From the IMG/VR virus record IMGVR_UViG_3300045988_036168: a stretch of 64,000 nt of DNA; one strand, written 5' to 3'. Both the position numbers and the translations under genes were made by a program. Origin of the DNA: a virus. Shown piece by piece: positions 3,293 to 60,009 of this stretch. Every line of letters starts with the position of its first letter. Within the stretch, counting starts at the first letter, position 1. The notes below the pieces were generated by a model. The model was not told the DNA's origin. It made no database searches and saw nothing but the letters and a program-made list of their open reading frames with translations.

Positions 3293-3369
3293 TGGCACGG
3301 ACGGTTGGGAATCGAACCCACCACACGCGGTTTTGGAGACCGTGTCGCCACCTTGGGACATTCGCCCGT
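3293..3369 (-). tRNA. tRNA-Trp (anticodon CCA), slightly aberrant
   Basis: Minus strand ACGGGCG..CGGT-CTCCAAA-ACCG..GTGGG-TTCGATT-CCCAAC-CGTCCGT-G-CCA. Has the bacterial Trp-type anticodon loop, A1:U72, G73 and a canonical T loop. Irregularities: a 1-nt bulge in the T stem, an A:C mismatch in the anticodon stem, and an irregular D-arm junction. Confidence 0.65.
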
Positions 3370-11678: not shown

Positions 11679-12851
11679 TTATGACGATGCTTTGAAGTTG
11701 TAGATGGGCCTGATAATCTCCAGCACGTCGCAGGTCGGGCCGATGCAGCCCATGATCTCCTTCGTGTCCTTGTAGGCGAACGGCGCCTCGTCTATGGTGT
11801 CGTAGCTGATACAGGAGCTATGCACGTTCCGCATCGTCTCTCGGTAGGCTCCGAGAGAAATAGACTCTCGGGCTTTGCTGCGGGACATCAGGCGGCCAGC
11901 TCCATGCGGTGCCGACTGGTTCCAATCGTCGTTGCCCTTGCCGACGCAGATCAGAGAACCGTCGCGCATATTCATCGGAATAATCAGGCGCTCGCCCTTC
12001 TTAGCAGACACAGCACCTTTCCGCAGGATCATGCTCTCGTGGTCAATGTAGTTGTGCACGGTCGTAAACTGCTCCTGCGGGACGATGTGCATAGCTTTCA
12101 GGATGGCCTTTGCGATGGCCTGACGGTTGGCCTCCGCATAACGCTGGATGATCTCCATGTCGTTCAGGTAATCGTCCATCAGTTCGCCGGTCAGGTACGC
12201 GAGGTCGGGTGCCCCGAAGTCGCTGTGCTGTTTTCTCAGTTCTTCCAGCGCACCGGCGATTTCCTTCTGCCGGCCAGCAGCCTTGTACTCGGTGACAACA
12301 CGGCTGATTTCCTCACTGGTGGGCTTTGTCATGGCCTCCATCGCTCTGCGCTGGTGCCAGTTCGCCACCTCAAGGCCGAGCTTTCGGCTGCCGGTGTGGA
12401 TCACCAGCCAGAGGCCGCCGCTCTTATCCTTGTCAACCTCGATGAAGTGATTGCCACCGCCGAGCGTCCCGATGCTGAGGAGCGCACGGCTGTTGTCGAT
12501 GCCGACGCATTTCAGGCCGCTCAGGTCGAACCACTCCTTCGGGTAGTTGTGAGTACAGAAACCGGCCGGCACATTCCAGCGGATGGCCTTGTCCAGCTCG
12601 TCAAGGTCGAGCCTCACCCGCCCCAGCTTGACGGCCAGCATACCGCAGCCGATGTCCACGCCCACGAGGTTCGGGCAGACGCGGTCGTGAATGGTCATCG
12701 TCGTTCCGATAGTACACCCAGCGCCGGCGTGAACGTCGGGCATGATCCGTACCTTGGAGCCGTCACTCACGGGATGGCGGGACAGCTTCTCAATCTGCTC
12801 CGTCGCTTCCTGCTCGATGGTCTTCGCAAAAATCTTCACATCATTGGTCAT
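11679..12851 (-). CDS. rtcB: RtcB-family RNA ligase (3'-phosphate/5'-hydroxyl)
   Basis: 390 aa. MPDVHAGAGCTIG, GVDIGCGM, GGGNHFIE, HTGSRKLG and NQSAPHGAGR match the RtcB metal/GMP-binding motifs. Confidence 0.9.
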   Translation of the reverse strand: MTNDVKIFAKTIEQEATEQIEKLSRHPVSDGSKVRIMPDVHAGAGCTIGTTMTIHDRVCPNLVGVDIGCGMLAVKLGRVRLDLDELDKAIRWNVPAGFCTHNYPKEWFDLSGLKCVGIDNSRALLSIGTLGGGNHFIEVDKDKSGGLWLVIHTGSRKLGLEVANWHQRRAMEAMTKPTSEEISRVVTEYKAAGRQKEIAGALEELRKQHSDFGAPDLAYLTGELMDDYLNDMEIIQRYAEANRQAIAKAILKAMHIVPQEQFTTVHNYIDHESMILRKGAVSAKKGERLIIPMNMRDGSLICVGKGNDDWNQSAPHGAGRLMSRSKARESISLGAYRETMRNVHSSCISYDTIDEAPFAYKDTKEIMGCIGPTCDVLEIIRPIYNFKASS

Positions 12852-23653: not shown

Positions 23654-23872
23654 TTAACCAGTTGGCAACTTGCCGTCGAAGAAAAAGTCGTTCACCTGCG
23701 CATTGTTCAGCGTGAGCAGGCTGGCGACCTCCGGGACTTCATCCAAGGTAAACTCTACTTCGCCTCTCTCTTTTCTCCCATAGGAGACTTCCGTGAGGCC
23801 GAGCTTCTCTGCCATGTACTTCTGCGTAAATCCAAGCCTTGCGCGGGCTCCCTTGATTTCGAGTGGTTTCAT
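23654..23872 (-). CDS. Cro-like XRE-family HTH regulator (72 aa)
   Basis: ORF trimmed to ATG 23872. ARARLGFTQKYMAEKLGLTEVSYGRKERG. Divergent from the CI-like gene. Confidence 0.75.
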   Translation of the reverse strand: MKPLEIKGARARLGFTQKYMAEKLGLTEVSYGRKERGEVEFTLDEVPEVASLLTLNNAQVNDFFFDGKLPTG

Positions 23873-23926
23873 AATGTTCACCCCTTTCAGCCTATCTTTT
23901 TTTGAAGATAATTGACCTATGTGATT

Positions 23927-23955
23927 ATTATAATTATCCACGTGGCTAATGTCAA
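23927..23955 (-). promoter_or_regulatory. Early (Cro-side) promoter
   Basis: Minus strand TTGACA-17 nt-TATAAT. The spacer contains TGGATAAT (the ATTATCCA box at 23933-23940). Confidence 0.6.
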
Positions 23956-23986
23956 TAGTTTTTTGCAGTTTTATCGCAAAAAATGT

Positions 23987-24015
23987 TTGCGATTTTACCC
24001 AAAGAGCTTTACAAT
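23987..24015 (+). promoter_or_regulatory. Repressor-side promoter
   Basis: Plus strand TTGCGA-17 nt-TACAAT, 42 nt upstream of the ATG at 24057. Confidence 0.6.
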
Positions 24016-24056
24016 GGCTAATACAAACAATCACGCTGGCAAAGGAGAAGCACATC

Positions 24057-24395
24057 ATGGAACTCGAACTCGATTTTACCGCCTTCAAGAAGAACCTGCG
24101 CGACCTAATTGAAAGCAGGGGTCTCTACGCCAAGGACATCGCCGCAGAGATCAACGTCTCAACGCCTACCCTGTCGAGATACCTTCAGGGCGTCCGTGAA
24201 CCCGAACTCAAGTACGTCGTTCGGCTCGCCCGCTACTTCGGCGTTTCTGTTGACTGGCTGCTGGGCCTCAGCAACGACCGCTACGAGGCAGTCCCCACAG
24301 AAGTCCGCGAGTTTGCCACTCTGTACGCTCTGGCCTCGCCAGATGACCGTACCATCGTCGAAACTGTACTCAAAAAATATCGAGAGGAGAACTAA
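24057..24395 (+). CDS. CI-like XRE-family repressor (112 aa)
   Basis: ORF trimmed to ATG 24057 (AAGGAG RBS). AKDIAAEINVSTPTLSRYLQGVREP is the HTH. Confidence 0.75.
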   Translation: MELELDFTAFKKNLRDLIESRGLYAKDIAAEINVSTPTLSRYLQGVREPELKYVVRLARYFGVSVDWLLGLSNDRYEAVPTEVREFATLYALASPDDRTIVETVLKKYREEN

Positions 24396-24397
24396 CC

Positions 24398-25315
24398 ATG
24401 ATCTTCGGCAAAGACTTGGGACGTTCTGCCTTCTTTGCCGAAATCGGCTCGGAGGTTGAACGTCTGGACAGCATCCCCAGCAACTACACAAGCCTCGTCT
24501 GCATTGGGCAGGGCGTCAGCCTCACCGATACCGTAGGACGTGAGTATCGCATCGACCTGTTCATCTCGCCCACCGGCTGTATCGCCGTTCGGCTCCCCCC
24601 TCCCCTTGCCGGTGCGTCGCCGACCGACGCCGATCCCAAGCATCTACGCCGCGTTGCCTCCATTGTGCGGGCGTGGAGCGTGGAGCAGCTCAACGAGGTC
24701 TGTGCCGACCATTTCTACCACGCCGAAGGACAGGCCGCCGACATCATCGACGTCCTCGTTCGCGCCGGTCTTGCGGGTTTCTCCGACAAAGGCAATGTCA
24801 GCAAGGCTCTCGCCGCAACGCTGGCCGGTGGCGAATTACTCTTCGAGGTCATCGACTCAGCCTCCGCACACAAGGTCTTTACCAGCCGTGAACTCATTGA
24901 CCGATTCTCTGCCGCAAAAGGCGTTGACCCAGACGACGTGACCGAGTTCATCGGTGCCCTCGAAGTCATGGACGGCTTCAGCGCCGTCTCCATCGGCCGC
25001 GAGATCATCGTTCAATATGCTCCGCTCGGCGACGGCCGCCCGTACCAGCTCTTCAAGTTCACCATCGGGCAGCATCGCTCGGACGTGGTGGCCGAGCCCC
25101 GTGTCACCCGACACCAGCTCCAGAGCAACGGGCGAGGTCCTGCCGAGGCCGACAGTTTCTTTGAGGCCCTCATTCCCTATGCGGACACGGCCTCAATGCA
25201 GCCTGCACCAGACGGCTCCATCAGTGTCTTGCCTCTCAGCATTGACGCCCTGATGGATGGCACGATGGGGCTTGTGGCAGCGGCCAGAGGCTTCGCAAAA
25301 GCAGTCTCGCAATAA
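24398..25315 (+). CDS. hypothetical protein (305 aa), lysogeny-module orphan
   Basis: Starts 2 nt after the repressor stop. No recognisable motif. Confidence 0.65.
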   Translation: MIFGKDLGRSAFFAEIGSEVERLDSIPSNYTSLVCIGQGVSLTDTVGREYRIDLFISPTGCIAVRLPPPLAGASPTDADPKHLRRVASIVRAWSVEQLNEVCADHFYHAEGQAADIIDVLVRAGLAGFSDKGNVSKALAATLAGGELLFEVIDSASAHKVFTSRELIDRFSAAKGVDPDDVTEFIGALEVMDGFSAVSIGREIIVQYAPLGDGRPYQLFKFTIGQHRSDVVAEPRVTRHQLQSNGRGPAEADSFFEALIPYADTASMQPAPDGSISVLPLSIDALMDGTMGLVAAARGFAKAVSQ

Positions 25316-25363
25316 AAACACATACGGGGCATCGCAGCAGCGGTGCCCCAAAACTATATCTAA

Positions 25364-25418
25364 CGGTTACGTTACGTTTACGGTATAGGTTACGGTTACG
25401 GTATGGTTACGGTTATAC
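25364..25418. repeat. About nine degenerate tandem copies of the hexamer GGTTAC
   Basis: CGGTTAC GTTAC GTTTAC GGTATA GGTTAC GGTTAC GGTAT GGTTAC GGTTAT. Confidence 0.8.
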
Positions 25419-25420
25419 AC

Positions 25421-25452
25421 GGAACGTCCGTGGATTTTTGGTCGGACGTTCC
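25421..25452. promoter_or_regulatory. Perfect 10-bp inverted repeat with 12-bp spacer (candidate attP core or operator)
   Basis: GGAACGTCCG-TGGATTTTTGGT-CGGACGTTCC, ending 31 nt upstream of the recombinase ATG. Confidence 0.4.
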
Positions 25453-25483
25453 TATGGAATATCCCGAAAAAGGAGGACTTCGT

Positions 25484-27202
25484 ATGGCTTCTCGCATCGC
25501 CGAGAAACTGGCCGCGAAGAAGGCGGCCATCTATATTCGCGTTTCTACTCATTGGCAGGTGGACAAAGACTCCCTCAAAGTTCAGCGCCGCGAACTTATC
25601 GCCTATGTCACGCTGGTGCTGGGCATCACCGACTACGTCGTGTTTGAAGACCCCGGCTACTCGGCCAAGAACACAGACCGCCCAGAATATCAGGCCATGA
25701 TGGATCGCATCCGCGCAGGCGAGTTTACCCACCTTGTCGTCTGGAAGATTGACCGTATCAGCCGCAACCTGATTGACTTCGCCGCCATGCACGACGAACT
25801 GCAGTCCCTCGGTGTCACCTTCGTCTCCAAGAACGAGCAGTTCGACACCTCCTCCGCCATCGGTGAGGCCATGATGCGCATTATCCTGATTTTCGCCGAG
25901 CTGGAGCGCAAGACCACCGCCGAGCGCGTCACGGCCGTCATGCTCTCCCGTGCCTCAGACGGTCAATGGAATGGTGGCCGTGTTCCCTTCGGCTATTCGT
26001 GGTCGAAGGAAACAAAGACATTCTCCATCGTCCCCGAGGAGGCAAAGGCCATCCGCCGCATGGCCGAACTGTACGAGCAGTACCAGTCCTTGCTCTATGT
26101 CGCCAAGTACCTCAACGACGCCGGTATCGTCACGAAGACGGGCGGCCAATGGACGCCAACCACGGTGCGCACCATCCTGACAAACCCGTGGTACATCGGC
26201 CAGTATGTCTATAACGTCCACTCAGACGGCAAGGGCATCGAGAAGCGCGACTCTGACGAATGGATCACCGTCGAGAACCACCACGAACCCATTCTGAACG
26301 AAGATGTATTCTGCCGCATGAAGTTCCTGCTGACTCGGAACAAGCGCGGCGGCGTTCCCTCTCACAAAACATACGTCAGGAAGAACATCCACGTCTTTGC
26401 TGGCCTGCTCCGCTGCGGTCAGTGCGGCTCCAACATGACAGCCAACCTCGACCGGCGGCGAGCGAACGGCTTCCGCCCCTCCCAATACGCCTGCGGCAGC
26501 CGGCGGCGCAAAGGAACCTCCTGCACCAACAAGTACATCTCCGACACCACGCTCGGCCCGTTCGTCCTGAACTACGTCGCCAACATCATCAGAGCCTCCA
26601 AGAACTTTTCTGAGACCACGACGCCCGATGTTCTGGAGCGTAAGCTGCTCCGCGGCGAAGCGTTCGAGGACGTGGCCTCCGTCAGCACCGACGCTCTGGG
26701 CCAGCTTCTCGATGCGTTCCGATCCGCCGGTGACGCCGTGGAGTACCGCCCGCAAATCGCCTTCTCCGGTGATGACAACTCCATCCGTGAAATTGACACC
26801 CTCCGCGCTCGGCGCCGCAAGCTCGACAACGCCCTCGCTCGTTTGAACGCCCTGTACCTCTACGACGACGAAGCCATGCCAGAGAAAGACTTCGTCATGC
26901 AGCGCGGCCAGATCACCAAACAGCTCGAAGAAGTCAATGCCCGCATTGAGGAACTGCAGAACCAAGAGTCCAGCGAGGAACTGGGCGACGACTTCATCGG
27001 CAAGGCCAGCTACTACATCATGGCGAACAAGCTGATCGAAGACCGCTACATCGACTACGAGAAGTACATCCGAGCCATTGACCCCTCTATCCCGCGCAGC
27101 TTCCTCCAGCAGATCATAGACCACATCGTCGTGAACGATGGCCGCGTCACCTCCATCACATTCAAGAACGGTGCGACCCACACATTCACCTACAAGACAT
27201 GA
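25484..27202 (+). CDS. Large serine recombinase (integrase)
   Basis: 572 aa from ATG 25484 (AGGAGG RBS). AAIYIRVSTHWQ carries the catalytic Ser. Also has a recombinase domain, a CGQCGSNMTA zinc ribbon and a C-terminal coiled coil. Confidence 0.92.
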   Translation: MASRIAEKLAAKKAAIYIRVSTHWQVDKDSLKVQRRELIAYVTLVLGITDYVVFEDPGYSAKNTDRPEYQAMMDRIRAGEFTHLVVWKIDRISRNLIDFAAMHDELQSLGVTFVSKNEQFDTSSAIGEAMMRIILIFAELERKTTAERVTAVMLSRASDGQWNGGRVPFGYSWSKETKTFSIVPEEAKAIRRMAELYEQYQSLLYVAKYLNDAGIVTKTGGQWTPTTVRTILTNPWYIGQYVYNVHSDGKGIEKRDSDEWITVENHHEPILNEDVFCRMKFLLTRNKRGGVPSHKTYVRKNIHVFAGLLRCGQCGSNMTANLDRRRANGFRPSQYACGSRRRKGTSCTNKYISDTTLGPFVLNYVANIIRASKNFSETTTPDVLERKLLRGEAFEDVASVSTDALGQLLDAFRSAGDAVEYRPQIAFSGDDNSIREIDTLRARRRKLDNALARLNALYLYDDEAMPEKDFVMQRGQITKQLEEVNARIEELQNQESSEELGDDFIGKASYYIMANKLIEDRYIDYEKYIRAIDPSIPRSFLQQIIDHIVVNDGRVTSITFKNGATHTFTYKT

Positions 27203-31029: not shown

Positions 31030-32892
31030 CTACACCGCCACCATGTCCAGCAGGGCGGCCATTGTCGTGATGGTGTCGCCTACTTTGGCGACGTATTCGG
31101 GGAAGTTTGCCCTTGCAACAGCCGCAGCCATCGGCGGGCAGACGGCGTTGCCACAGCGGGCGACCTGTTCGTTCTTCGGGTACGGGTTGCCCATGTAATC
31201 GCGGTCGATGATGTAATCGGGTGGGAACCCCATCGCATTGTAAAGCTCTCTCGGGGAGAGCATCCGCAGGCCGATGTCTGCGATGAAGTAGAGCGTCCCG
31301 CCGATGCTCAGAAGCAGCAGGTCGTCATCGGCCAGCTTATAACCGCAGTAGCGGTTCAGCAGTTCGCGGATCAGCGGCCAACGATACAGGTTCTCGTCCG
31401 GGCCAGCCTTGCAAAGCAGCGTGTCGCAGAGGGCGAAGGTTCCTCCGCCGCAAGCCTTTTTCTGGCCCGCGCCTGCCGTTACGGTCTGCATCGGTTCTGC
31501 AGGGCTGCTCCCCAAGTTGTCTCCCTTGAACTTCACCACATGGGCCGCGCACACCGCATTGTGGTCGATGGCCGTCACCGTCGGAAGCGGCTCTTCCATC
31601 TTCTCGCCGACCACACCGCTGTAATACTTCACCAGATTTGCGCAGGTCAGACCGTAGCGGTTCGAGGCATCCACGGTGGGGATTGGAGCGCCGAGGCCAG
31701 AGGCTCGGACGTTTTCTGTCTGCTCGGTATGGTACTGAATGAGCGAGGGCGCCACGATACCGCCCGTATGCTTGGCGGTAATGGTTTTGTATGGGCCACG
31801 CACATCGGCGACGTGGCCGCCTCCTGCGTGATTACATTCGGCCAGATATGGGGTTACAAGCATCTGGTTCCCTGCTGTCGTCACGGTATGTACCGGATCA
31901 CCGGCAGGCGCTCCGACGCTGTTGCTGGTGTTCGTCGCCGTGAACGGTGCCAGCACCGGCTTGCAGAGGTTGTGCTTGCCGCTCCCGACCACCGTAGGCA
32001 GCGGTTCCTCAATGTCGTGTACCCGTGGGGCCTGTCCCTTTCGTTCTCCATAGCCGGTCGGGACGATATACGGCTGGCCGCTCTTGATGGTGAATTTATC
32101 CACGCCGCGGATGATGCGCCGCATGGTGTTGTCCGCCAAAGGCCGCACCGCCTTCAAATTGTACCGCTCCTTGATTTCCTCCTTGGTGTCGAAGATGGAC
32201 GGGCAAGGTAGGCTCCAGTCGATGATTTCCGCCGCACTGCGCCACGGTTTCAGCCTGCCGCTCTTCACGGCTTCGCTGTCCCGCGGAGCGTGGGTCGGTT
32301 CGGGCCACACAATGGGCTTTCCGTCGCAACGGGCAATCAGGACAAACCGCTTGCGGCTGGTCGGTGCGCCATAATCAGCCGCCACCAGCTCACGCCATTC
32401 GACCTCGTAGCCGAGATCCCGAAGCTGACCGATGAACTTTCTGAACGTCGTGCCTGCCAACTTCTTTACAGGCTTGCCCTTTCTGACCGGCCCCCATGTC
32501 TGGAACTCTTCGACATTTTCGAGGAAAATCACTCGTGGCCGCACCAAAGCGGCCCATCTCAGGGTGATCCACGCAAGGCCGCGGATTTTCTTGTCAACGA
32601 GAGCTGCGCCCTTAGCCTTGCTGAAATGCTTGCAGTCGGGCGAGAACCACGCACCGCCCACGGGACGCCCGCGGCATACGTCACGCGGGTCAACATCCCA
32701 AACGGACGCCTGATAATGCTCCGTGTACGGGTGGTTCGTCTTGTGCATCAGGATCGCCGCAGGGTCGTGGTTGATGGCCGCCGCCACCGTAATGCCGAGG
32801 CCGACCTCCATGCCCGTCGATGCGCCGCCACCGCCCGCGAAGCTGTCAACGAAGATTTCGTCGTCGATGCCGATTTGTGCGCAATTTCTCAT
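31030..32892 (-). CDS. DNA (cytosine-5)-methyltransferase, long form (620 aa)
   Basis: FAGGGGAS (motif I), SPDCKHFS (motif IV-like), IFLENVEEF (motif VI), TSRKRFVLIA (motif VIII). Confidence 0.88.
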   Translation of the reverse strand: MRNCAQIGIDDEIFVDSFAGGGGASTGMEVGLGITVAAAINHDPAAILMHKTNHPYTEHYQASVWDVDPRDVCRGRPVGGAWFSPDCKHFSKAKGAALVDKKIRGLAWITLRWAALVRPRVIFLENVEEFQTWGPVRKGKPVKKLAGTTFRKFIGQLRDLGYEVEWRELVAADYGAPTSRKRFVLIARCDGKPIVWPEPTHAPRDSEAVKSGRLKPWRSAAEIIDWSLPCPSIFDTKEEIKERYNLKAVRPLADNTMRRIIRGVDKFTIKSGQPYIVPTGYGERKGQAPRVHDIEEPLPTVVGSGKHNLCKPVLAPFTATNTSNSVGAPAGDPVHTVTTAGNQMLVTPYLAECNHAGGGHVADVRGPYKTITAKHTGGIVAPSLIQYHTEQTENVRASGLGAPIPTVDASNRYGLTCANLVKYYSGVVGEKMEEPLPTVTAIDHNAVCAAHVVKFKGDNLGSSPAEPMQTVTAGAGQKKACGGGTFALCDTLLCKAGPDENLYRWPLIRELLNRYCGYKLADDDLLLLSIGGTLYFIADIGLRMLSPRELYNAMGFPPDYIIDRDYMGNPYPKNEQVARCGNAVCPPMAAAVARANFPEYVAKVGDTITTMAALLDMVAV

Positions 32893-46163: not shown

Positions 46164-46694
46164 TCAGGCCCCCGCCGGTGCCGTCGGGATGAACCCGCGG
46201 ATCAGATCCTCGTACAGTCTGCGGTATGTATCACGTTCAGCCTTTACCGTCGCCAGTTCCAAAGCGGCCTTTGTATCGGTCTCCTTGCTGACGACAGCTT
46301 CCCGCTTTTCGACCTGCTGTTCGCGTTCCTTCAGGCGCTCGATCAGGCCGGGGTACTTCTTGAGGCCCAGAGCCGTCGCAACCGCGATGTCGATGTCGCG
46401 CATCTCCTCCGCCGTACAGCGCCCGATGTAATTGCCGAGCCGTTCCAGCGATACCGTATTGATCTGCTCACACATGACCGTGCTCGCCCTTCCTGTACTC
46501 AGGATCTCAACGTGGGTCGGCAGATTGCTCTTCGGCTGCGTCGTGCAAAAGGCCACCTGCACGGTTTCGGAGTAGCGGTTCCCTTCGTCACAGGAAACAA
46601 CCACGCCGGGACGCCCCGTATGTTCCTCGCTTCCGACCTGAATGCCGAACTTGTGGACATAGAAGATGTCGCCACGTCTGATGCTGAAGCTCAC
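46164..46694 (-). CDS. MazF/PemK-fold toxin-like protein with coiled-coil C-terminal extension
   Basis: RGDIFYV..GRPGVVVS..TTQPKSNLPTHVEI..VMCEQINTVSLERL, plus a helical tail of about 65 aa. Confidence 0.7.
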   Translation of the reverse strand: MSFSIRRGDIFYVHKFGIQVGSEEHTGRPGVVVSCDEGNRYSETVQVAFCTTQPKSNLPTHVEILSTGRASTVMCEQINTVSLERLGNYIGRCTAEEMRDIDIAVATALGLKKYPGLIERLKEREQQVEKREAVVSKETDTKAALELATVKAERDTYRRLYEDLIRGFIPTAPAGA

Positions 46695-47205: not shown

Positions 47206-47419
47206 CTGAGATTCCACAGCTTTTCTCCTCCTTGTCCGTCAGCCGCTTCAACGCGGCCGCTTGCTCTTCGATAAGGTCTGCGGCAGCCTTTGCCACCGTG
47301 CCGGCGCATTTGAACCGTGCTGGCCGCTCAAACGCAGGGCATTGCTCCTTCGGGCAGCGTCCTGTTTCGATGGCCGATTGATGGCATCGAAGCGCCAAAA
47401 GAACTTCTTGCGGTGTCAT
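47198..47419 (-). CDS. hypothetical Cys-containing protein (73 aa)
   Basis: ORF trimmed to ATG 47419, which overlaps the MTase stop. Confidence 0.5.
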   Translation of the reverse strand: MTPQEVLLALRCHQSAIETGRCPKEQCPAFERPARFKCAGTVAKAAADLIEEQAAALKRLTDKEEKSCGISDV

Positions 47420-48192
47420 CAGCCCACCTCCTTGCTGTGGCTTCTGCAGCACTCGCGGAGGCGGGTGCGCATCACGTCGCAATACTGCTTTTCATTCTCA
47501 ATGCCTATGTACTGCCGCCCCGTTCTGCAGCAGGCAACACCGATGGAGGCACTTCCAGCGCAGCAGTCGAGCACGACCTCGCCGGGGTTGGTATATGTGA
47601 GCACCAGTCTCTCGCACAGCCATACCGGCTTCTGCGTCGGGTGCAGGTGGCTCGTCTGCTTATCGCTGGGGCCTTTGACAACACTTCGCGGGTAGCGGTC
47701 TGTGTTGCCGCCGCCCTTGACTTCCTTCGTCGCCTTCTGGTAGATCTCAGTGCGGTTCTGCGTGTCGATGTAATGGGTGTAGCTGTTCACCGGCTGATGG
47801 CCGTCCGTCTTCTGCGGGTTGTACGTCGGCTGGCGGCGGTAGAAAATCAGGATGTTCTCATGCGCCCGCATGGGCATTCGCTTCGCATTTAGATGGCCGG
47901 TGGCGTTGCTCTTCTCCCAGATCCACTCGTACCGCAGATTTCTCAGGTTGCTGCATCCCAGCACCTTGTCGAACGGCGTCTGCGCAAACAGAGCTACCGC
48001 TCCATCCTTTTTCACGACGCGGTCGGCTTCGCTCCAGAACGCATCAAGGTCAATCGGCGTGTCCCACTTGCAGTTTGTTCGCCCATACGGCAGATCCGTG
48101 AAAAGGAAATCCACGCTTCCCGCCGGCAGGAGCCGCATCCCGTCGATGCAGTCTCCCAAATAGGTCTTATAGTTCCAGTCTTTGCGCTCCAT
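47419..48192 (-). CDS. Beta-class N6-adenine/N4-cytosine DNA methyltransferase
   Basis: FLFTDLPYG (DPPY motif), HPTQKP, VLDCCAGSASIG (motif I). Confidence 0.9.
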   Translation of the reverse strand: MERKDWNYKTYLGDCIDGMRLLPAGSVDFLFTDLPYGRTNCKWDTPIDLDAFWSEADRVVKKDGAVALFAQTPFDKVLGCSNLRNLRYEWIWEKSNATGHLNAKRMPMRAHENILIFYRRQPTYNPQKTDGHQPVNSYTHYIDTQNRTEIYQKATKEVKGGGNTDRYPRSVVKGPSDKQTSHLHPTQKPVWLCERLVLTYTNPGEVVLDCCAGSASIGVACCRTGRQYIGIENEKQYCDVMRTRLRECCRSHSKEVG

Positions 48193-54850: not shown

Positions 54851-54879
54851 TTGACAGCGGCCGGCAGCCATGTTACACT
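54851..54879 (+). promoter_or_regulatory. Plus-strand promoter facing the 54983-55010 promoter
   Basis: TTGACA-17 nt-TACACT, located in the 5' leader of the minus-strand cassette. Confidence 0.5.
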
Positions 54880-54885
54880 TACCTT

Positions 54886-54968
54886 GCTCAGAGGTGTGTA
54901 ACGCAGTCACAGGTGGCTGCCGAACCGCCGGAACCCTTGGTGTTGCAAGCACTGAGGGTTCTTTTTTG
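54886..54968 (+). ncRNA. Predicted cis-antisense sRNA of about 83 nt
   Basis: Starts downstream of the 54851-54879 promoter. Ends at GAACCCT-17 nt-AGGGTTC + TTTTTTG (54931-54968). No ATG/RBS inside. Fully complementary to the minus-strand leader. Confidence 0.45.
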
Positions 54969-54982
54969 TTTCCTGTGATTTG

Positions 54983-55010: not shown

Positions 55011-55060
55011 GATAGGTGCGCGGTAATAACATTTAACCGTTCGGATAACAGCAAAAACGC

Positions 55061-55091
55061 GAAAAAGCCCTGCGTCAGACGACGCGGGGCT
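55061..55091 (-). terminator. Intrinsic terminator after the XRE gene
   Basis: Minus strand AGCCCCGCGTC-GTCT-GACGCAGGGCT followed by TTTTCG. Confidence 0.7.
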
Positions 55092-55120: not shown

Positions 55121-55474
55121 CTATCTCTCTTTCAGAATGACCCCGGCCATCTCCGCAAGCATCTCAATCTGGGACGGTGTCGGATCGGACTCAGAAAAAA
55201 TTTTTTGAATTTTTTCGGCCTCCGTGCCTTCCACGAGGTCTGGCAGGATATAATTCGGTGAAACTCGTAATTCGCGGCATAAAGTGGCGAATACCGGCAG
55301 GCTCGGCAACTTCTTTCCGCCCTCAATCTGGCGCAGATACGTCGAATTGATGTTGCAAGCCTCTGCCAGCTTCTCAGCCGTCAGGCCGCGGTCTTTTCGG
55401 GCTTTGTTGATTCTCGTTCCAAATAGCTTCTTGTCCACTTTTTGCTCCTCCAATAATGTATGCCGTCGGTTCAT
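55121..55474 (-). CDS. XRE-family HTH regulator
   Basis: RINKARKDRGLTAEKLAEACNINSTYLRQIEGGKKLPSL. The start could be 55474 or 55489. Confidence 0.75.
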   Translation of the reverse strand: MNRRHTLLEEQKVDKKLFGTRINKARKDRGLTAEKLAEACNINSTYLRQIEGGKKLPSLPVFATLCRELRVSPNYILPDLVEGTEAEKIQKIFSESDPTPSQIEMLAEMAGVILKER

Positions 55475-55503
55475 ACCACCTCTTCTCATAGCTTACAGCC
55501 CCG

Positions 55504-55532
55504 TTGACGCTCACGAAATCCACTGTTAGAAT
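55504..55532 (+). promoter_or_regulatory. Promoter of the PD-(D/E)XK orphan
   Basis: TTGACG-17 nt-TAGAAT, 48 nt upstream of the ATG at 55581. Divergent from the XRE gene. Confidence 0.6.
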
Positions 55533-55580
55533 ATAGGCCATGAGCCAGTAGACTATACCACATGAACGGAGGATATTTTC

Positions 55581-56666
55581 ATGGGTCTTTCAGGGTCTAA
55601 ACTCTACCGCCTTTCCGGTGGCACCGTCATCCCGGCCAGCGAGGCTCTATATCCCGCAGAGGCCGATCTTCAGCAGCTTATTGCAGAAAATCCGCAACTG
55701 CTGCTCAGCTCCCCCAATGAGGGCCAGCGCCTTTACCTGTTGCGTCGAGAACAGCCCGTGCGCGATGCTCCAGATGGGCCAGCCCTTTTCTCCATTGACC
55801 ATCTCTTCATTGACCAAGACGGTCTTCCCGTGCTCGTCGAGGTGAAGCGGAGCACCGACACCAGAATCCGCCGCGAGGTCGTAGGCCAGATGCTCGACTA
55901 CGCCTCCCGTATGCGGGCGTGGAGCGCCAGCGAACTCAGGTCGTCCGCGTCGCTTCTGGATGTTCCAGATGATCTATGGGCCGCTCTCGACGGCAATCTG
56001 AAGGCCGAGCGGATGCGGCTGATTTTCGCGGCAGACTCTATCCCTGGCTCCTTGGCCTCCATGATCGACTTCCTCGACCGCAGCATGGACGCTATCGAGG
56101 TCTGCGGCGTCGAGATTAAGCGGTACGTTTCCGAGGACGGTGCCGAGCTGATCTCCTCCACGATTGTCGGCGGTGGCAATTCGCCTGTCAAGCGGGCTGC
56201 CAGATACTCCACTATCTGGGACGCCGACAGCATGGCCGAGCAGCTCAACCAGCGCGAAAACTCAGCCATCGTTCCGGTTGTCGCCGCTCTCACATCGTTC
56301 GCCTCCAGCGCCGGTCTGCAGATCAGTTATGGCCGCGGGACGAAGTTTGGCGTGTGCAGGGCGCTTCGGAACGGCCGCAAGGTATTTAGTGTGACCTCGT
56401 GGGAAAAGGGCCATACGGGTCTCAGGACAGCCGTTGAGGTATCTTTACCGTCGTTGGTAGACCAGACCTGCGGCACGTTCGAGGAAGGTGCGCTACGCTC
56501 CATGCTCCTGACGTTCCCCGACGCTTCCCCAGCCGACGCCGAGCAATTCATCTTCGGCTCCAGCCAGTTCCAGTATATCGACCTGCGATTACTTGCAGAG
56601 CCATCAAACCTCTCGCATTTCCAGAACGCCATCACTCAAATCGTTCAGGCCATCCCTGAAGAATAA
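55581..56666 (+). CDS. NucS/EndoMS-like PD-(D/E)XK nuclease-domain protein with uncharacterised 230-aa C-terminal region
   Basis: AEADLQQLIAENPQLL ... FSIDHLFIDQDGLPVLVEVKRSTDTRIRREVVGQMLDYA gives the D..(D/E)xK core. GGAGGA RBS. Confidence 0.6.
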   Translation: MGLSGSKLYRLSGGTVIPASEALYPAEADLQQLIAENPQLLLSSPNEGQRLYLLRREQPVRDAPDGPALFSIDHLFIDQDGLPVLVEVKRSTDTRIRREVVGQMLDYASRMRAWSASELRSSASLLDVPDDLWAALDGNLKAERMRLIFAADSIPGSLASMIDFLDRSMDAIEVCGVEIKRYVSEDGAELISSTIVGGGNSPVKRAARYSTIWDADSMAEQLNQRENSAIVPVVAALTSFASSAGLQISYGRGTKFGVCRALRNGRKVFSVTSWEKGHTGLRTAVEVSLPSLVDQTCGTFEEGALRSMLLTFPDASPADAEQFIFGSSQFQYIDLRLLAEPSNLSHFQNAITQIVQAIPEE

Positions 56667-56670
56667 GAAA

Positions 56671-56710
56671 AGCGGCTACGCCCCGAAATGGAGCATAGCC
56701 GCTATTTTAC
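56671..56710 (+). terminator. Intrinsic terminator after the PD-(D/E)XK gene
   Basis: AGCGGCTA-17 nt-TAGCCGCT followed by ATTTTAC. Confidence 0.55.
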
Positions 56711-56788
56711 TGCCCTCTGGAGCCGCTGGAACGTCGCAGAATGATGGATTGTATGCCGGCGGCAACGTAAATCGACCTACGCTGGTCT

Positions 56789-57304
56789 TTACCGATGCCA
56801 CAGCTCCTCGGAAACCTCGACCGACTCTTCTTTGAGTGCAGAGAGCCGTTCCTCGAACTCGTATTCCGTGATTTCGCCCGTCTTCCGCAGGCCGCGGAGT
56901 ATCGAGATCTCCTGCGGGATCTCCGCATAGCGTTTCCGCAGGTGGTCAATGCGGGAGTCCTGCTTCGCAATCTCCTGCCGCCACCCTTCCCAGAGCGGCG
57001 TCGTGAACTCCTTCCATTCCAACTCAGGCAGCGTCACGCTCAGGTCATCCCTCGCCTTGTCGTCCACGTTCAGTGGCGGATGGAGCCGCAGGATGTAGTA
57101 GATCTCGTACAGGTTCATATCCGCTTCGCTCCCCAACTCCGCATACTCGATCTTCGTCACCTGCTCTATGTTGACGGTGCGGTGCATCGGCTTGCTGAAC
57201 AGGTGGCCGCGTATTCTGCTCTGCAGCGGCTGCTTGGTGCGGCCAACGTACACGAGGCAGCCCCCGTACCAGATCCGATAAATCAGGAACCCTTGCACCC
57301 TCAT
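56789..57304 (-). CDS. GIY-YIG nuclease-domain protein (free-standing homing-endonuclease-like)
   Basis: ORF trimmed to ATG 57304. FLIYRIWYGGCLVYVGRT..SRIRGH..NLYEIYYI. Confidence 0.6.
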   Translation of the reverse strand: MRVQGFLIYRIWYGGCLVYVGRTKQPLQSRIRGHLFSKPMHRTVNIEQVTKIEYAELGSEADMNLYEIYYILRLHPPLNVDDKARDDLSVTLPELEWKEFTTPLWEGWRQEIAKQDSRIDHLRKRYAEIPQEISILRGLRKTGEITEYEFEERLSALKEESVEVSEELWHR

Positions 57305-59409: not shown

Positions 59410-60009
59410 TCAGTCGATGAACCGGATGTTCTCCGCCGCCGTGCTCCACACCTTGCCGTGCTCGTCCTCGACAATGCCCGTTGTGACAGGGACGGCCCCA
59501 TTATCGAACTCCTCGAACGTGCTTCCCCATGTGTGGAACCATGCGACAAATTCATCCTCGCGCCACCCGTCGTTCGTGCGCTCATACACATGGGCGATGC
59601 ACTTACGGCAGGTCGGCACGGGTGGCTTCCCGCGCAAAGGCCCTCCCTCCTGCCACGGGCGGAACTGCTGGATCTTTTCCAGCAGGCCCTTCGGATTGCC
59701 GTCGAAGAGCAAGGCTCGGTCATCGACATAGACCTTCGCAGGTGGCTTTTCCGCCGCCACATCGTCAACCTCAATGCCGTTCTCCCGAAGGTAGCGCCGC
59801 ACCGCTCCCATGCCCTCAGGCGTGGCGCATCTGGTGGACACGACCACCACTCTGTACCCCGCGGCTCTGATCCGCTTGATTTCTTCGTCAATGAGCGACA
59901 CGGGCGGGTCGGGTACAACGCCTGCGCCCTGCCAGCCACTCACATAGGAATGGATGACGCCGTCAAAATCCAGCACCACATTCGGCTGATACTTCATCTC
60001 CCAAGCCAT
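59410..60009 (-). CDS. HAD-superfamily phosphatase-like protein with C-terminal extension
   Basis: VVLDFDGVIHSY (DxD motif I), VVVVSTR, KVYVDDRALLFDG. Confidence 0.6.
   Translation of the reverse strand: MAWEMKYQPNVVLDFDGVIHSYVSGWQGAGVVPDPPVSLIDEEIKRIRAAGYRVVVVSTRCATPEGMGAVRRYLRENGIEVDDVAAEKPPAKVYVDDRALLFDGNPKGLLEKIQQFRPWQEGGPLRGKPPVPTCRKCIAHVYERTNDGWREDEFVAWFHTWGSTFEEFDNGAVPVTTGIVEDEHGKVWSTAAENIRFID

What the first reader, a model, noticed from the sequence alone, without database searches (positions are those of the whole stretch)
55121..56710. Opposite-strand, XRE-linked orphan with an N-terminal NucS-like PD-(D/E)XK domain, a candidate lysogen-expressed defence gene
The gene at 55581-56666 is one of only four plus-strand genes in the window. 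It has its own strong promoter (TTGACG-17-TAGAAT, 55504-55532), divergent from an XRE gene, and its own terminator. This moron-like organisation is typical of prophage-encoded superinfection-exclusion or defence genes. Its N-terminus (EADLQQLIAENPQLL ... IDHLFIDQDGLPVLVEVKR ... GQMLDYA) shows the PD-(D/E)XK D..(D/E)xK core in the NucS/EndoMS style. The remaining 230 aa or so match nothing I recognise. The nuclease domain is N-terminal, so the architecture does not fit Shedu-like or Mrr-like arrangements, which have C-terminal nuclease domains.
Basis: partly seen in the sequence, partly recalled or inferred. Interest (0 to 1): 0.68.

Follow-up and report, generated by a model that had tools for sequence, protein, structure and literature searches.

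The report
Phage-carried Madara-like defence nuclease variant
A temperate gut phage carries a self-contained, backwards-facing gene for a DNA-cutting enzyme whose cutting half belongs to a recently validated anti-phage family (PDC-S11/"Madara"). Its other half is a different, undescribed probable DNA-sensing module, so this is a new variant of a known kind of defence gene rather than an orphan.

Summary
ORF 55581-56666 (+, 361 aa) is real and under purifying selection. It has a conserved near-consensus promoter, a ribosome-binding site and a bidirectional terminator, and it is divergent from an XRE gene.

Residues ~8-196 form a NucS-type PD-(D/E)XK nuclease (D73, E87-x-K89, Q103xxxY107). It is not an orphan: more than 3,800 homologues exist, and all 40 tested hit the PADLOC candidate family PDC-S11. 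A September 2026 preprint shows that E. coli PDC-S11 ("Madara") is a modification-dependent restriction nuclease with the same N-terminal nuclease layout.

I retrieved Madara. Only the nuclease halves align. The window's C-terminal domain (208-358) matches neither Madara's C-terminus, DUF4268, Pfam nor PADLOC. Its confident model weakly resembles the YjbR "double-wing" DNA-binding fold. The same domain is also fused to GmrSD, HEPN and kinase effectors.

The gene is a lone inverted insert in at least four phage lineages. Its slot is empty or holds other cargo in related phages, where the XRE gene persists.

Best reading: a phage-borne, single-gene, probably modification-sensing restriction nuclease. 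This is a new variant of a known kind, of moderate interest.

The parts
55581..56666 (+). Gene for the 361-aa two-domain nuclease (stop codon included)
   Evidence: The ORF is listed. It has >3,800 homologues of ~360-380 aa. Across 17 alleles in closely related phages, dN/dS is 0.07 for the N-terminal domain and 0.13 for the C-terminal domain. The AF2 model has mean pLDDT 89.8 and shows two domains.
55602..56168 (+). N-terminal NucS-type PD-(D/E)XK nuclease domain (residues ~8-196). Catalytic D73 is at 55797-55799, E87 at 55839-55841, K89 at 55845-55847, and Q103/Y107 at 55887-55901.
   Evidence: These residues are invariant columns of alignment A1. Foldseek hits NucS 2vld (E 1.8e-4, prob 1.0) and EndoMS 5gke. 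PADLOC PDC-S11 model PDLC04916 matches residues 10-195 at E 1.9e-9. hhalign against E. coli Madara aligns residues 8-201 with Madara 3-190 and puts D73 on D63.
56169..56201 (+). Flexible interdomain linker (residues ~197-207)
   Evidence: pLDDT is below 50 for residues 200-207. The columns are poorly conserved and gapped in A1.
56202..56654 (+). C-terminal alpha/beta domain (residues ~208-358), a candidate nucleic-acid or invader-sensing module. W213 is nearly invariant.
   Evidence: The stand-alone AF2 model has pLDDT 95.6 and pTM 0.89. Foldseek gives only weak hits: YjbR 2fki (prob 0.97, E 0.049) and YdhG-like 9t2w. There is no Pfam or PADLOC hit. Its profile finds 2,471 representative proteins, including fusions to GmrSD, HEPN, CBS, a kinase and DUF4268.
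55504..55532 (+). Sigma-70-type promoter of the nuclease gene: -35 TTGACG, 17-nt spacer, extended -10 TGtTAGAAT
   Evidence: Found by the scan. Both hexamers are conserved in L095, L112 and L113 (nuclease 45% identical) while the spacer diverges.
55568..55572 (+). Ribosome-binding site GGAGG, 8 nt before the ATG
   Evidence: Read directly from the sequence.
56671..56703 (.). GC-rich hairpin that probably terminates in both directions. It would end the nuclease transcript and stop minus-strand backbone transcription from running antisense into the gene.
   Evidence: One search reports 14 pairs (9 GC) with a T-run on the minus strand. ATTTTA follows the hairpin on the plus strand.
55121..55438 (-). 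Divergent XRE-family HTH gene (105 aa from GTG 55438; the longest ORF runs to 55489). It is a backbone regulator next to the cargo slot, and possibly a repressor of the cargo promoter.
   Evidence: Pfam HTH_19 and HTH_3 hit at E ~1e-11. It is called as 105 aa on related contigs. Related phages retain it with an empty slot or with other cargo.
55439..55580 (.). 142-bp divergent control region between the XRE gene and the nuclease gene
   Evidence: Conserved blocks ATGTATGC, CATAGCTTAC, TTGAC, GTTAGAAT and GTGAGC-A-TAGACTA are shared with phages of 45% nuclease identity. Operator function is inferred, not shown.
55060..55085 (-). Terminator-like hairpin and T-run after the XRE gene, which would make the XRE transcript monocistronic
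   Evidence: One search reports a 5-bp stem with 4 GC pairs at 55085-55072, followed by a tail AGGGCTTTTT.

Best explanation
The gene encodes a stand-alone (single-gene) defence nuclease of the PDC-S11/Madara type, carried as an autonomous inverted cassette by a temperate phage of gut Oscillospiraceae-like Clostridia.

Proposed mechanism:
1. The gene is transcribed from its own near-consensus promoter, possibly tuned by the neighbouring XRE protein. A bidirectional terminator insulates it from the phage backbone.
2. The C-terminal alpha/beta domain recognises a feature of incoming foreign DNA, most likely a modified or hypermodified base. This mirrors the C-terminal sensors of Madara, END nucleases and other Type IV enzymes.
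3. The N-terminal NucS-type PD-(D/E)XK domain (D73, E87, K89, Q103, Y107) then cuts that DNA, probably as a dimer.
4. The lysogen, and so the prophage, is protected from superinfecting phages.

Shown here: the gene, its signals and its selection; the nuclease fold and intact catalytic residues; homology of the nuclease half to PDC-S11/Madara; a distinct, mobile C-terminal domain; no conserved partner gene; recurrent location as a phage insert and in defence-like islands.

Inferred: defence activity, modification dependence, dimerisation, XRE control, and expression in the lysogen.
For: Nuclease half:
- Invariant D73, E87-V-K89 and Q103xxxY107.
- Foldseek top hits are NucS and EndoMS.
- PADLOC PDC-S11 at E 1.9e-9, and 40 of 40 family members hit (best 2.4e-20).
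- The E. coli BREX-adjacent nuclease WP_001240363.1 has D63 where the preprint's D63A mutation lies, and it matches a PDC-S11 model end to end at 4.7e-114.
- hhalign aligns that protein with the window family over the whole nuclease domain, with catalytic residues in register (E 2.7e-5).

Precedent:
- Madara restricts glucosyl-hmC T4 but not T4(C), and D63A abolishes defence.
- END-Mag, a NucS-like nuclease fused to iEndoIII, restricts phages with modified G.
- PDC-S11 models share only the N-terminal ~230 residues, so variable C-termini are a property of the family.

Sensor half:
- The C-terminal model is confident and weakly resembles the YjbR double-wing fold.
- The same domain sits at the C-terminus of a GmrSD Type IV enzyme and is fused to HEPN, CBS, a kinase and DUF4268.
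- DUF4268 has itself been proposed as a substrate-recognition motif of modification-dependent nucleases.

Context:
- It is a lone inverted gene in four separate phage lineages.
- In relatives of this phage the slot is empty or holds other cargo.
- Cellular homologues lie next to a Type IIG R-M enzyme with an integrase, or next to WYL regulators.
- No neighbour is conserved, with at most 7 of 80 loci sharing one, so there is no cognate methyltransferase.
- The phage is temperate, as shown by a large serine recombinase.
- dN/dS of 0.07-0.13 indicates purifying selection.
Against: - No functional data exist for this protein or for any member with this C-terminal domain.
- The C-terminal domain has no detectable similarity to Madara's C-terminus (hhalign probability 0.1%), to DUF4268 (1%), or to any Pfam or PADLOC model.
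- The YjbR fold match is weak (E 0.049, TM 0.43-0.55). McrB-N, EVE and SRA were not among the top 50 fold hits.
- Fusions of the domain to HEPN RNases and a protein kinase fit a general trigger sensor as well as a modified-base reader.
- The match to PDC-S11 covers only half of the HMM.
- The phage encodes several DNA methyltransferases, so its own DNA is probably modified. A Type IV activity would have to spare those marks.
- The other cargoes found in the same slot are not recognisable defence genes.
Confidence: 0.55

Rival explanations
1. It is a defence nuclease, but not a modified-base reader. In this reading the C-terminal domain senses another infection cue, such as free DNA ends, a phage protein or a nucleotide signal. 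It then releases a non-specific nuclease, either as abortive infection or in a Shedu-like manner.
For: The same C-terminal domain is fused to HEPN_Swt1, Hypoth_Ymh, CBS and a protein kinase, which are effectors and sensors typical of abortive-infection systems. The nuclease core also resembles SduA (Foldseek 8ps5 prob 0.77; SduA_C E 0.009). The Madara authors themselves leave open 'a non-specific abortive response'. A neighbouring XRE gene or WYL regulator suggests a toxic product that needs control.
Against: The closest validated relatives by nuclease domain, Madara and END-Mag, are modification-dependent. The domain is also fused to GmrSD, a Type IV enzyme. The best fold match is a DNA-binding double-wing fold.
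Confidence: 0.2
2. It is a phage housekeeping nuclease that serves the phage's own lytic cycle. Possible roles are host-DNA degradation, recombination or repair in the manner of NucS/EndoMS, or processing of replication intermediates. In this reading it is not a defence gene.
For: It sits in a region rich in DNA and RNA metabolism genes: GIY-YIG, HAD, dUTPase/DCD, HD, RecT and RtcB. The nuclease fold is that of a repair enzyme.
Against: It is transcribed against the whole backbone from its own promoter and is insulated by terminators. It is dispensable, because the slot is empty in L138 and holds other cargo in L139, L141 and L129. It lacks the NucS N-terminal domain (NCBIfam NucS 17 bits against a cut-off of 216). 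Homologues occur mostly in cellular genomes, in variable island-like contexts. In another phage it sits inside the tail module.
Confidence: 0.1
3. It is a selfish element. Either it is a free-standing homing endonuclease, or it is a toxin-antitoxin-like addiction pair in which the XRE protein acts as antitoxin or repressor. In both cases it persists through its own mobility or through post-segregational killing.
For: It is inserted singly at different sites in unrelated phages. In L129 only a 29-codon remnant remains, which points to cassette turnover. The XRE protein hits antitoxin-type HTH models at sub-threshold scores.
Against: There is no conserved partner in 80 cellular loci, and XRE neighbours occur in only ~4 of 80. 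The XRE gene persists without the nuclease (L138). Within this phage group the gene is syntenic and vertically inherited, with 45% identity against 56-65% for flanking proteins. That pattern does not fit recent homing. The two-domain sensor-effector layout is typical of restriction enzymes.
Confidence: 0.07

Closest known systems
Madara (PADLOC candidate PDC-S11), the E. coli ECOR34 BREX-adjacent nuclease; near-identical allele WP_001240363.1
   Same: Both are single-gene systems of ~330-360 aa. Both have an N-terminal NucS-type PD-(D/E)XK domain, a linker and a C-terminal accessory domain. The catalytic D, ExK and QxxxY motifs align in register: D73=D63, E87/K89=E78/K80, Q103/Y107=Q91/Y95. 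The window protein hits PDC-S11 HMMs. Neither has a cognate methyltransferase.
   Different: Identity over the nuclease domain is only ~19%. The C-terminal domains show no detectable similarity. Madara's is described as EVE-like, whereas this one is weakly YjbR-like and matches none of the PDC-S11 models. This gene is carried by a phage and is divergent from an XRE gene. Madara is chromosomal, lies next to BREX and is silenced by H-NS.
END-Mag (MDV2503288) and the END nucleases
   Same: END-Mag has a NucS-like PD-DExK nuclease fused to a C-terminal sensor of non-canonical bases. It illustrates the modular nuclease-plus-sensor logic of Type IV enzymes.
   Different: Its sensor is an inactivated EndoIII/Ogg1 HhH domain. 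No such fold or family was found here.
NucS/EndoMS mismatch endonuclease (PDB 2vld, 5gke)
   Same: It is the best structural match for the catalytic domain. It shares the D/ExK/QxxxY active site and the strand-helix-strand element that follows it.
   Different: NucS has its DNA-binding and dimerisation domain at the N-terminus and its nuclease at the C-terminus, and it binds a clamp. Here the order is reversed, the NucS N-domain is absent, and the HMM scores fall far below the family cut-offs.
Shedu (SduA, DUF4263)
   Same: The PD-(D/E)XK core is related (SduA_C E 0.009; Foldseek 8ps5 prob 0.77). Both are single-gene defences with a variable sensor domain.
   Different: The Shedu nuclease is C-terminal with N-terminal sensors. 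The Pfam score here is 16.6 bits against a gathering cut-off of 27.
MdgA/MdgB and GmrSD-DUF4268 modification-dependent nucleases
   Same: Relatives of the window protein are encoded next to, or fused with, DUF4268. The window's C-terminal domain also occurs at the C-terminus of a GmrSD enzyme. MdgA degrades T4 DNA but shows much reduced activity on T4-GT7 DNA.
   Different: The window protein has no DUF4268, and its C-terminal domain is unrelated to DUF4268 at profile level.
YjbR/MmcQ 'double-wing' DNA-binding domain (PF04237; PDB 2fki)
   Same: It is the best, though weak, fold match for the C-terminal domain. Published work relates this fold to McrB-N and the T4 MotA C-terminal domain, and reports fusions to EVE and to nucleases.
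   Different: There is no Pfam hit even at E<=10. TM-scores are only 0.43-0.55. The window domain is about 35 residues longer and has extra helices.

Membership tests
PDC-S11 / Madara | N-terminal NucS-type PD-(D/E)XK nuclease with catalytic D, ExK and QxxxY | tested here: met
   D73, E87, K89, Q103 and Y107 are invariant. They align in register with Madara D63, E78, K80, Q91 and Y95 (hhalign E 2.7e-5). Foldseek hits NucS at E 1.8e-4.
PDC-S11 / Madara | Significant match to a PADLOC PDC-S11 model | tested here: met
   PDLC04916 matches at E 1.9e-9, and 40 of 40 family members hit it (best 2.4e-20). However, only profile positions 9-182 of 358 are covered, which is the nuclease half.
PDC-S11 / Madara | Madara-type (EVE-like) C-terminal domain | tested here: not met
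   hhalign of the C-domain profile against the Madara C-terminus gives probability 0.1%. The C-domain alone hits no PADLOC model, whereas Madara's C-terminus hits PDLC04909 and PDC-S57. Fold search finds YjbR/YdhG rather than PUA/EVE.
PDC-S11 / Madara | Single-gene system without a conserved partner or methyltransferase | tested here: met
   The largest shared neighbour cluster covers 7 of 80 genome loci. The gene is a lone inverted gene in four phage lineages.
PDC-S11 / Madara | Restricts phages with modified DNA, and defence is lost in a catalytic-Asp mutant | not testable with these tools
   This needs phage-challenge and mutant assays. It has been shown only for E. coli Madara.
Type IV (modification-dependent) restriction enzymes | Nuclease fused to a separate DNA or modification-recognition domain, with no cognate methyltransferase | tested here: inconclusive
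   The two-domain layout and the absence of a partner are met. DNA or modification recognition by the C-domain rests only on a weak YjbR-like fold match and on a fusion to GmrSD.
NucS/EndoMS | Full NucS architecture (N-terminal DNA-binding domain plus C-terminal nuclease) scoring above the family cut-off | tested here: not met
   NCBIfam NucS scores 17.3 and 14.8 bits against cut-offs of 216 and 252, and covers only residues 24-115. The domain order is reversed.
Shedu (SduA) | C-terminal DUF4263/SduA_C nuclease scoring above the Pfam gathering score | tested here: not met
   PF14082 scores 16.6 bits against a cut-off of 27 and covers profile positions 4-60 of 159. The nuclease here is N-terminal.
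YjbR/MmcQ (PF04237) | Sequence match to PF04237, or a clear match to its fold | tested here: inconclusive
   There is no Pfam hit at E<=10. Foldseek against 2fki gives prob 0.97, E 0.049, and TM 0.43 (query) and 0.55 (target).
DUF4268 (PF14088) | Sequence or profile match to DUF4268 | tested here: not met
   There is no Pfam hit. hhalign of A3 against a DUF4268 alignment gives probability 1%. The two domains occur side by side as separate units in P0199, P0238, P0260 and P0123.
R-M controller (C) protein / dedicated XRE partner | A small HTH gene consistently paired with the nuclease gene | tested here: not met
   The HTH fold is confirmed. However, the XRE gene persists with an empty slot (L138) or with other cargo (L139, L141). 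It is absent beside the homologues in three other phages. It was detected in only ~4 of 80 cellular loci.

The most novel reading that the evidence does not exclude
The C-terminal domain may be a previously undescribed, widespread class of invader-DNA sensor, possibly a reader of modified bases. It matches at least 2,471 clusters at 50% identity. At sequence level it is distinct from EVE, DUF4268 and Madara's C-terminus, and no SRA, McrB-N or iEndoIII fold appeared among the fold-search hits. It is shuffled among NucS-like, GmrSD, HEPN and kinase effectors. Under this reading, temperate gut phages repeatedly capture the NucS-like version as a self-contained insert, to exclude competing phages with hypermodified DNA from their lysogens.
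Probability: 0.35. Interest if true: 0.65.

Novelty: new variant of a known kind. Interest (0 to 1): 0.47.

Why it matters
If the reading is right, three things follow.

1. PDC-S11/Madara becomes a modular superfamily: one NucS-type nuclease core combined with interchangeable C-terminal sensors. That extends it well beyond its single characterised E. coli member. The variant described here is one of the largest uncharacterised branches, found in Clostridia, Actinomycetota, Chloroflexota, Planctomycetota, Alphaproteobacteria and methanogenic archaea.

2. The C-terminal domain would be a new candidate sensor module. It recurs with GmrSD, HEPN and kinase effectors, and its ligand is unknown and can be tested.

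3. Temperate phages of the human and animal gut would be shown to carry such nucleases as autonomous inserts in a variable slot. That bears on phage-phage competition and on how common DNA hypermodification is among gut phages.

An enzyme with a new modification specificity would also be useful as a reagent for mapping modified bases.

Tried and rejected
- PDB sequence searches with the protein, the family profile and the C-domain profile gave only spurious hits to designed repeat proteins, XPD and similar entries.
- PHROGs had no family for the nuclease.
- GenBank phages gave no DNA or tblastn match. Plasmids gave only 'hypothetical protein' hits, in Rhodococcus and a few other genera.
- Rfam found no family anywhere in the window.
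- The BFVD fold search with the C-domain returned only weak hits to uncharacterised Bacillus phage G proteins.
- Homology of the C-domain to DUF4268 and to Madara's C-terminus was tested and rejected at profile level.
- The idea that the XRE gene is a dedicated partner, antitoxin or controller was rejected from slot comparisons.
- The chance-ORF or pseudogene idea was rejected on dN/dS of 0.07-0.13 across 17 alleles and on the size of the family.
- My GC3-based gene caller wrongly preferred antisense ORFs inside the gene, because they share the third codon position. I did not use it as evidence.
- The alternative cargoes in the slot could not be identified as defence genes.
- The Madara preprint holds no reference list or supplements. 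I therefore recovered the Madara sequence indirectly through the E. coli HS BREX locus.
- I looked for the XRE gene's own promoter in the intergenic region. Only an unverified extended -10-like TGGTATAGT was seen on the minus strand near 55552-55560. It is imperfectly conserved, and I make no claim for it.
Full report
**1. The observation**

The plus-strand ORF 55581-56666 (361 aa) is present as described. A GGAGG ribosome-binding site lies 8 nt upstream of its ATG.

The promoter scan recovers TTGACG-17-TAGAAT at 55504-55532, with a TG extension. It also finds a 14-bp GC-rich hairpin at 56671-56703, just after the stop codon. That hairpin carries a T-run on the minus strand, so it would also stop backbone transcription from the gene at 56789-57304 before it runs antisense into the nuclease gene.

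Consensus matches alone are weak evidence: 4 sites were found against 1.2 +/- 0.9 in shuffles. Conservation is stronger. The -35 TTGAC and the TGTTAGAAT -10 are both kept in related phages (L095, L112, L113) whose nuclease is only 45% identical, while the spacer differs.

The divergent ORF at 55121-55489 is an XRE/HTH_3 protein (E ~1e-11). Its probable start is the GTG at 55438 behind an AGGAG, giving the 105-aa product called on related contigs. It has its own terminator-like hairpin at 55085-55072.

The gene is functional. Seventeen distinct alleles from closely related phages give dN/dS of 0.07 for the N-terminal domain and 0.13 for the C-terminal domain.

**2. The genome around it**

The window is a phage. 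It encodes:
- an RtcB ligase, RecT and DNA methyltransferases;
- proteins matching PHROG families of unknown function;
- a tRNA-Trp;
- dUTPase/DCD, HD, an N6/N4 methyltransferase and a PemK-like toxin, as annotated on near-identical contigs.

It also carries a 599-aa large serine recombinase on the plus strand (25403-27202), next to a second XRE gene. The phage is therefore temperate.

Fourteen IMG/VR viral contigs of 30-103 kb carry the same nuclease gene at 94-99% identity. Nothing similar exists among 50,697 GenBank phage records. The closest cellular homologues, at 37-40% identity, are in Oscillospiraceae MAGs, which suggests the host group.

**3. The protein: N-terminal half**

The protein is not an orphan. 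More than 3,800 proteins match it, nearly all 360-380 aa long, unnamed and without Pfam domains. Relatives occur in at least 526 species-representative genomes from Clostridia, Actinomycetota, Chloroflexota, Planctomycetota, Alphaproteobacteria and methanogenic archaea.

In a 40-sequence alignment the invariant columns are E27, Q31, E57, D73, E87-V88-K89-R90, R98-E99, Q103, Y107, F149/A151/D152 and E178. This is a PD-(D/E)XK site with the QxxxY motif, followed by a conserved strand-helix-strand.

The AlphaFold2 model has mean pLDDT 89.8 and shows two domains joined by a disordered linker at 200-207. Foldseek's best PDB matches are NucS from P. abyssi (2vld, E 1.8e-4, prob 1.0) and EndoMS (5gke). 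Weaker matches are SduA, Card1 and PaqCI. HMM hits to NucS and SduA_C are far below the family cut-offs.

That domain extends to about residue 196.

**4. The link to a known defence family**

PADLOC's candidate family PDC-S11 matches at E 1.9e-9 over residues 10-195. All 40 aligned family members hit the same model, the best at 2.4e-20.

A bioRxiv preprint of 11 September 2026 (10.64898/2026.09.05.749240) shows that PDC-S11 of E. coli ECOR34, renamed Madara, restricts glucosyl-hmC T4 and other Tevenvirinae but not T4(C). It reports that D63A abolishes defence. It describes an N-terminal NucS-like nuclease joined by a linker to a C-terminal 'EVE-like' domain.

A related precedent is END-Mag. 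This is a NucS-like nuclease fused to an inactivated EndoIII sensor, and it restricts phages with modified guanine (PMC12191111).

**5. Direct comparison with Madara**

The preprint gives no accession. I located the E. coli HS BREX locus and found a frameshifted remnant divergent from brxA that carries a D...ELK...QxxRY motif. I then searched all complete E. coli genomes with that DNA; 556 of 5,426 have the locus. This yielded an intact 332-aa 'PDDEXK family nuclease', WP_001240363.1. Its residue 63 is the Asp of RRID63LLAID, which matches the published D63A mutation.

This protein hits PDC-S11 model PDLC04909 end to end (4.7e-114). It hits the other PDC-S11 models only over residues 1-~230. 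PDC-S11 is therefore a shared nuclease core with variable C-termini.

Profile-sequence alignment with the window family covers the whole nuclease domain (A1 8-201 against Madara 3-190, E 2.7e-5, 19% identity). The catalytic residues are in register: D73=D63, E87/K89=E78/K80, Q103/Y107=Q91/Y95. Nothing aligns beyond that.

**6. The C-terminal domain**

Modelled alone, residues 205-361 give pLDDT 95.6 and pTM 0.89. The domain runs as two helices, a four-stranded meander, three helices, two strands and a long helix.

Results of the comparisons:
- no Pfam hit at E<=10 and no PADLOC hit;
- no PDB sequence match;
- no profile similarity to Madara's C-terminus (probability 0.1%);
- no profile similarity to DUF4268 (probability 1%).

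Foldseek gives only weak matches: YjbR (2fki, prob 0.97, E 0.049, TM 0.43/0.55) and a YdhG-like protein. BFVD was uninformative.

An exhaustive HMMER search with the C-domain profile finds 2,471 representative proteins at E<=1e-3. Most have the canonical ~370-aa layout. The domain also occurs in other architectures:
- at the C-terminus of a GmrSD Type IV enzyme (P0143);
- with CBS, HEPN_Swt1 and DUF7662 (P0173);
- with Hypoth_Ymh (P0225);
- with a protein kinase (P0221);
- repeatedly just before DUF4268 (P0199, P0238, P0260, P0123).

DUF4268 is a known GmrSD accessory domain (PMC4619093). It has also been proposed as a substrate-recognition motif of the modification-dependent nucleases MdgA and MdgB (10.1101/2025.02.28.640651).

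The C-domain is thus a mobile module that keeps company with Type IV and abortive-infection effectors. What it binds is unknown.

**7. Genomic context**

Across 80 cellular loci no neighbour is conserved; the largest shared cluster covers 7 of 80. An XRE neighbour was detectable in only ~4 of 80. This fits a single-gene system with no cognate methyltransferase.

Individual contexts include:
- an operon with a PD-(D/E)XK-DUF4268 protein, beside a Type IIG R-M enzyme, an integrase and a DUF2399/Toprim protein;
- positions directly after WYL-WCX regulators;
- a position beside an SNF2-type helicase.

Homologues of 37-40% identity are lone genes, inverted against all their neighbours, in three further unrelated phages. 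One has a terminase, a portal protein and a SAM synthetase. One has a serine recombinase, an ATP-grasp enzyme and an ornithine decarboxylase. In the third the gene sits inside the tail module.

**8. The slot in this phage group**

I used the downstream GIY-YIG gene as an anchor. Relatives of the window phage show the following:
- the nuclease in the same place (14 close relatives, plus L140 at 45% identity);
- an empty slot, with GIY-YIG followed by the XRE gene 230 bp later (L138);
- other inverted cargo in L139 (430-aa and 133-aa unknowns);
- other inverted cargo in L141 (a 208-aa protein with a D...EVK motif, plus a DUF4236 protein);
- a 29-codon remnant of the nuclease followed by methyltransferase-like cargo (L129).

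Those alternative cargoes are not recognisable defence genes.

Flanking proteins between the window and L095 are 56-65% identical, against 45% for the nuclease.

The XRE gene therefore belongs to the backbone beside a variable cargo slot. It may still regulate the cargo promoter, and the 142-bp control region has conserved blocks. It is not a dedicated partner.

**9. Interpretation**

The best-supported reading is a phage-borne, single-gene restriction-type nuclease of the PDC-S11/Madara kind (confidence about 0.55). A C-terminal sensor would direct or license an N-terminal NucS-type nuclease against superinfecting DNA, most probably DNA with modified bases.

Rivals are:
- a differently triggered or abortive nuclease (0.2);
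- a phage housekeeping nuclease (0.1);
- a selfish or addiction element (0.07).

None of the functional steps was or could be tested here.

**10. Novelty and score**

The claim of an orphan with an unprecedented architecture does not hold.

The nuclease core belongs to a family that is already catalogued and has now been validated. The C-terminal domain, the size and phyletic spread of this branch, and its recurrent capture by temperate gut phages are undescribed. I file it as a new variant of a known kind, with interest 0.47.

Noticed in passing
window 54851-54972 (+): A promoter-like site (TTGACA-17-TACACT with TG, 54851-54879) is followed by two stable hairpins and a strong intrinsic terminator (54930-54962 plus a T-run). 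All of this lies on the plus strand, in the 295-bp gap between two minus-strand genes. It is a candidate ~85-nt small RNA (MFE -36.8 kcal/mol, z -3.16). There is no Rfam match.
   Followed up: partly
window 23654-27202: This is a lysogeny module. It holds a 599-aa large serine recombinase on the plus strand (25403-27202; Resolvase, Recombinase and Zn_ribbon_recom domains), an unknown 305-aa plus-strand ORF (24398-25315) and a second XRE-type HTH gene (23654-24088, minus strand). The phage is therefore temperate.
   Followed up: partly
L138, L139, L141, L129 (relatives of window 55439-56790): The interval between the GIY-YIG gene and the XRE gene is a variable cargo slot. It is empty in L138. 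L139 holds a 430-aa and a 133-aa unknown. L141 holds a 208-aa protein with a D...EVK PD-(D/E)XK-like motif plus a DUF4236 protein. In L129 it is replaced by methyltransferase-like cargo, leaving a 29-codon nuclease remnant.
   Followed up: partly
L119:20195-20602 (E. coli HS) and L120:2547-3407 (E. coli ST131 EC958): In E. coli HS, the source of the BREX system used in the Madara preprint, and in EC958, the Madara/PDC-S11 gene divergent from brxA is a frameshifted pseudogene truncated by IS1. Intact alleles, annotated 'PDDEXK family nuclease' or 'membrane protein', occur in other strains. The locus is present in 556 of 5,426 complete E. coli genomes.
   Followed up: partly
P0143, P0173, P0199, P0221, P0225, P0123; L091:6036-7004: The window protein's C-terminal domain is a mobile module. 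It is fused to GmrSD, to CBS with HEPN_Swt1, to Hypoth_Ymh and to a protein kinase, and it often lies directly before DUF4268. In L091 a PD-(D/E)XK-like DUF4268 protein is co-transcribed with a homologue of the window protein.
   Followed up: partly
window 11679-12851 (-), 59410-60009 (-), 3293-3369 (-): The phage encodes an RtcB-type RNA ligase (PHROG E 3.6e-129). It also has a protein with a weak, sub-threshold hit to the HAD domain of 'Swiss Army Knife' RNA-repair proteins (E 4.9e-4, below the Pfam cut-off), and a tRNA-Trp. Together these could be an RNA-repair kit against host anticodon nucleases.
   Followed up: no
window 56789-57304 (-): The gene immediately downstream of the nuclease cassette has sub-threshold hits to a GIY-YIG nuclease domain and to a C-terminal SHOCT motif. 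It is widely conserved in related viral contigs (52 loci).
   Followed up: partly
window 46164-46694 (-) and 47419-48192 (-), 31030-32892 (-): The phage carries a PemK/MazF-like toxin gene and at least two DNA methyltransferases: an N6_N4 type of 257 aa and a 620-aa methyltransferase. Its own DNA is therefore probably methylated, which bears on self-avoidance by any modification-dependent nuclease.
   Followed up: no
L096 (phage carrying homologue P0052): Another phage that carries a homologue encodes an ornithine/arginine decarboxylase, a PylC-like ATP-grasp enzyme, an acetyltransferase and a GLF/amino-oxidase-like protein next to the gene. This set could be a DNA-hypermodification pathway.
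   Followed up: no
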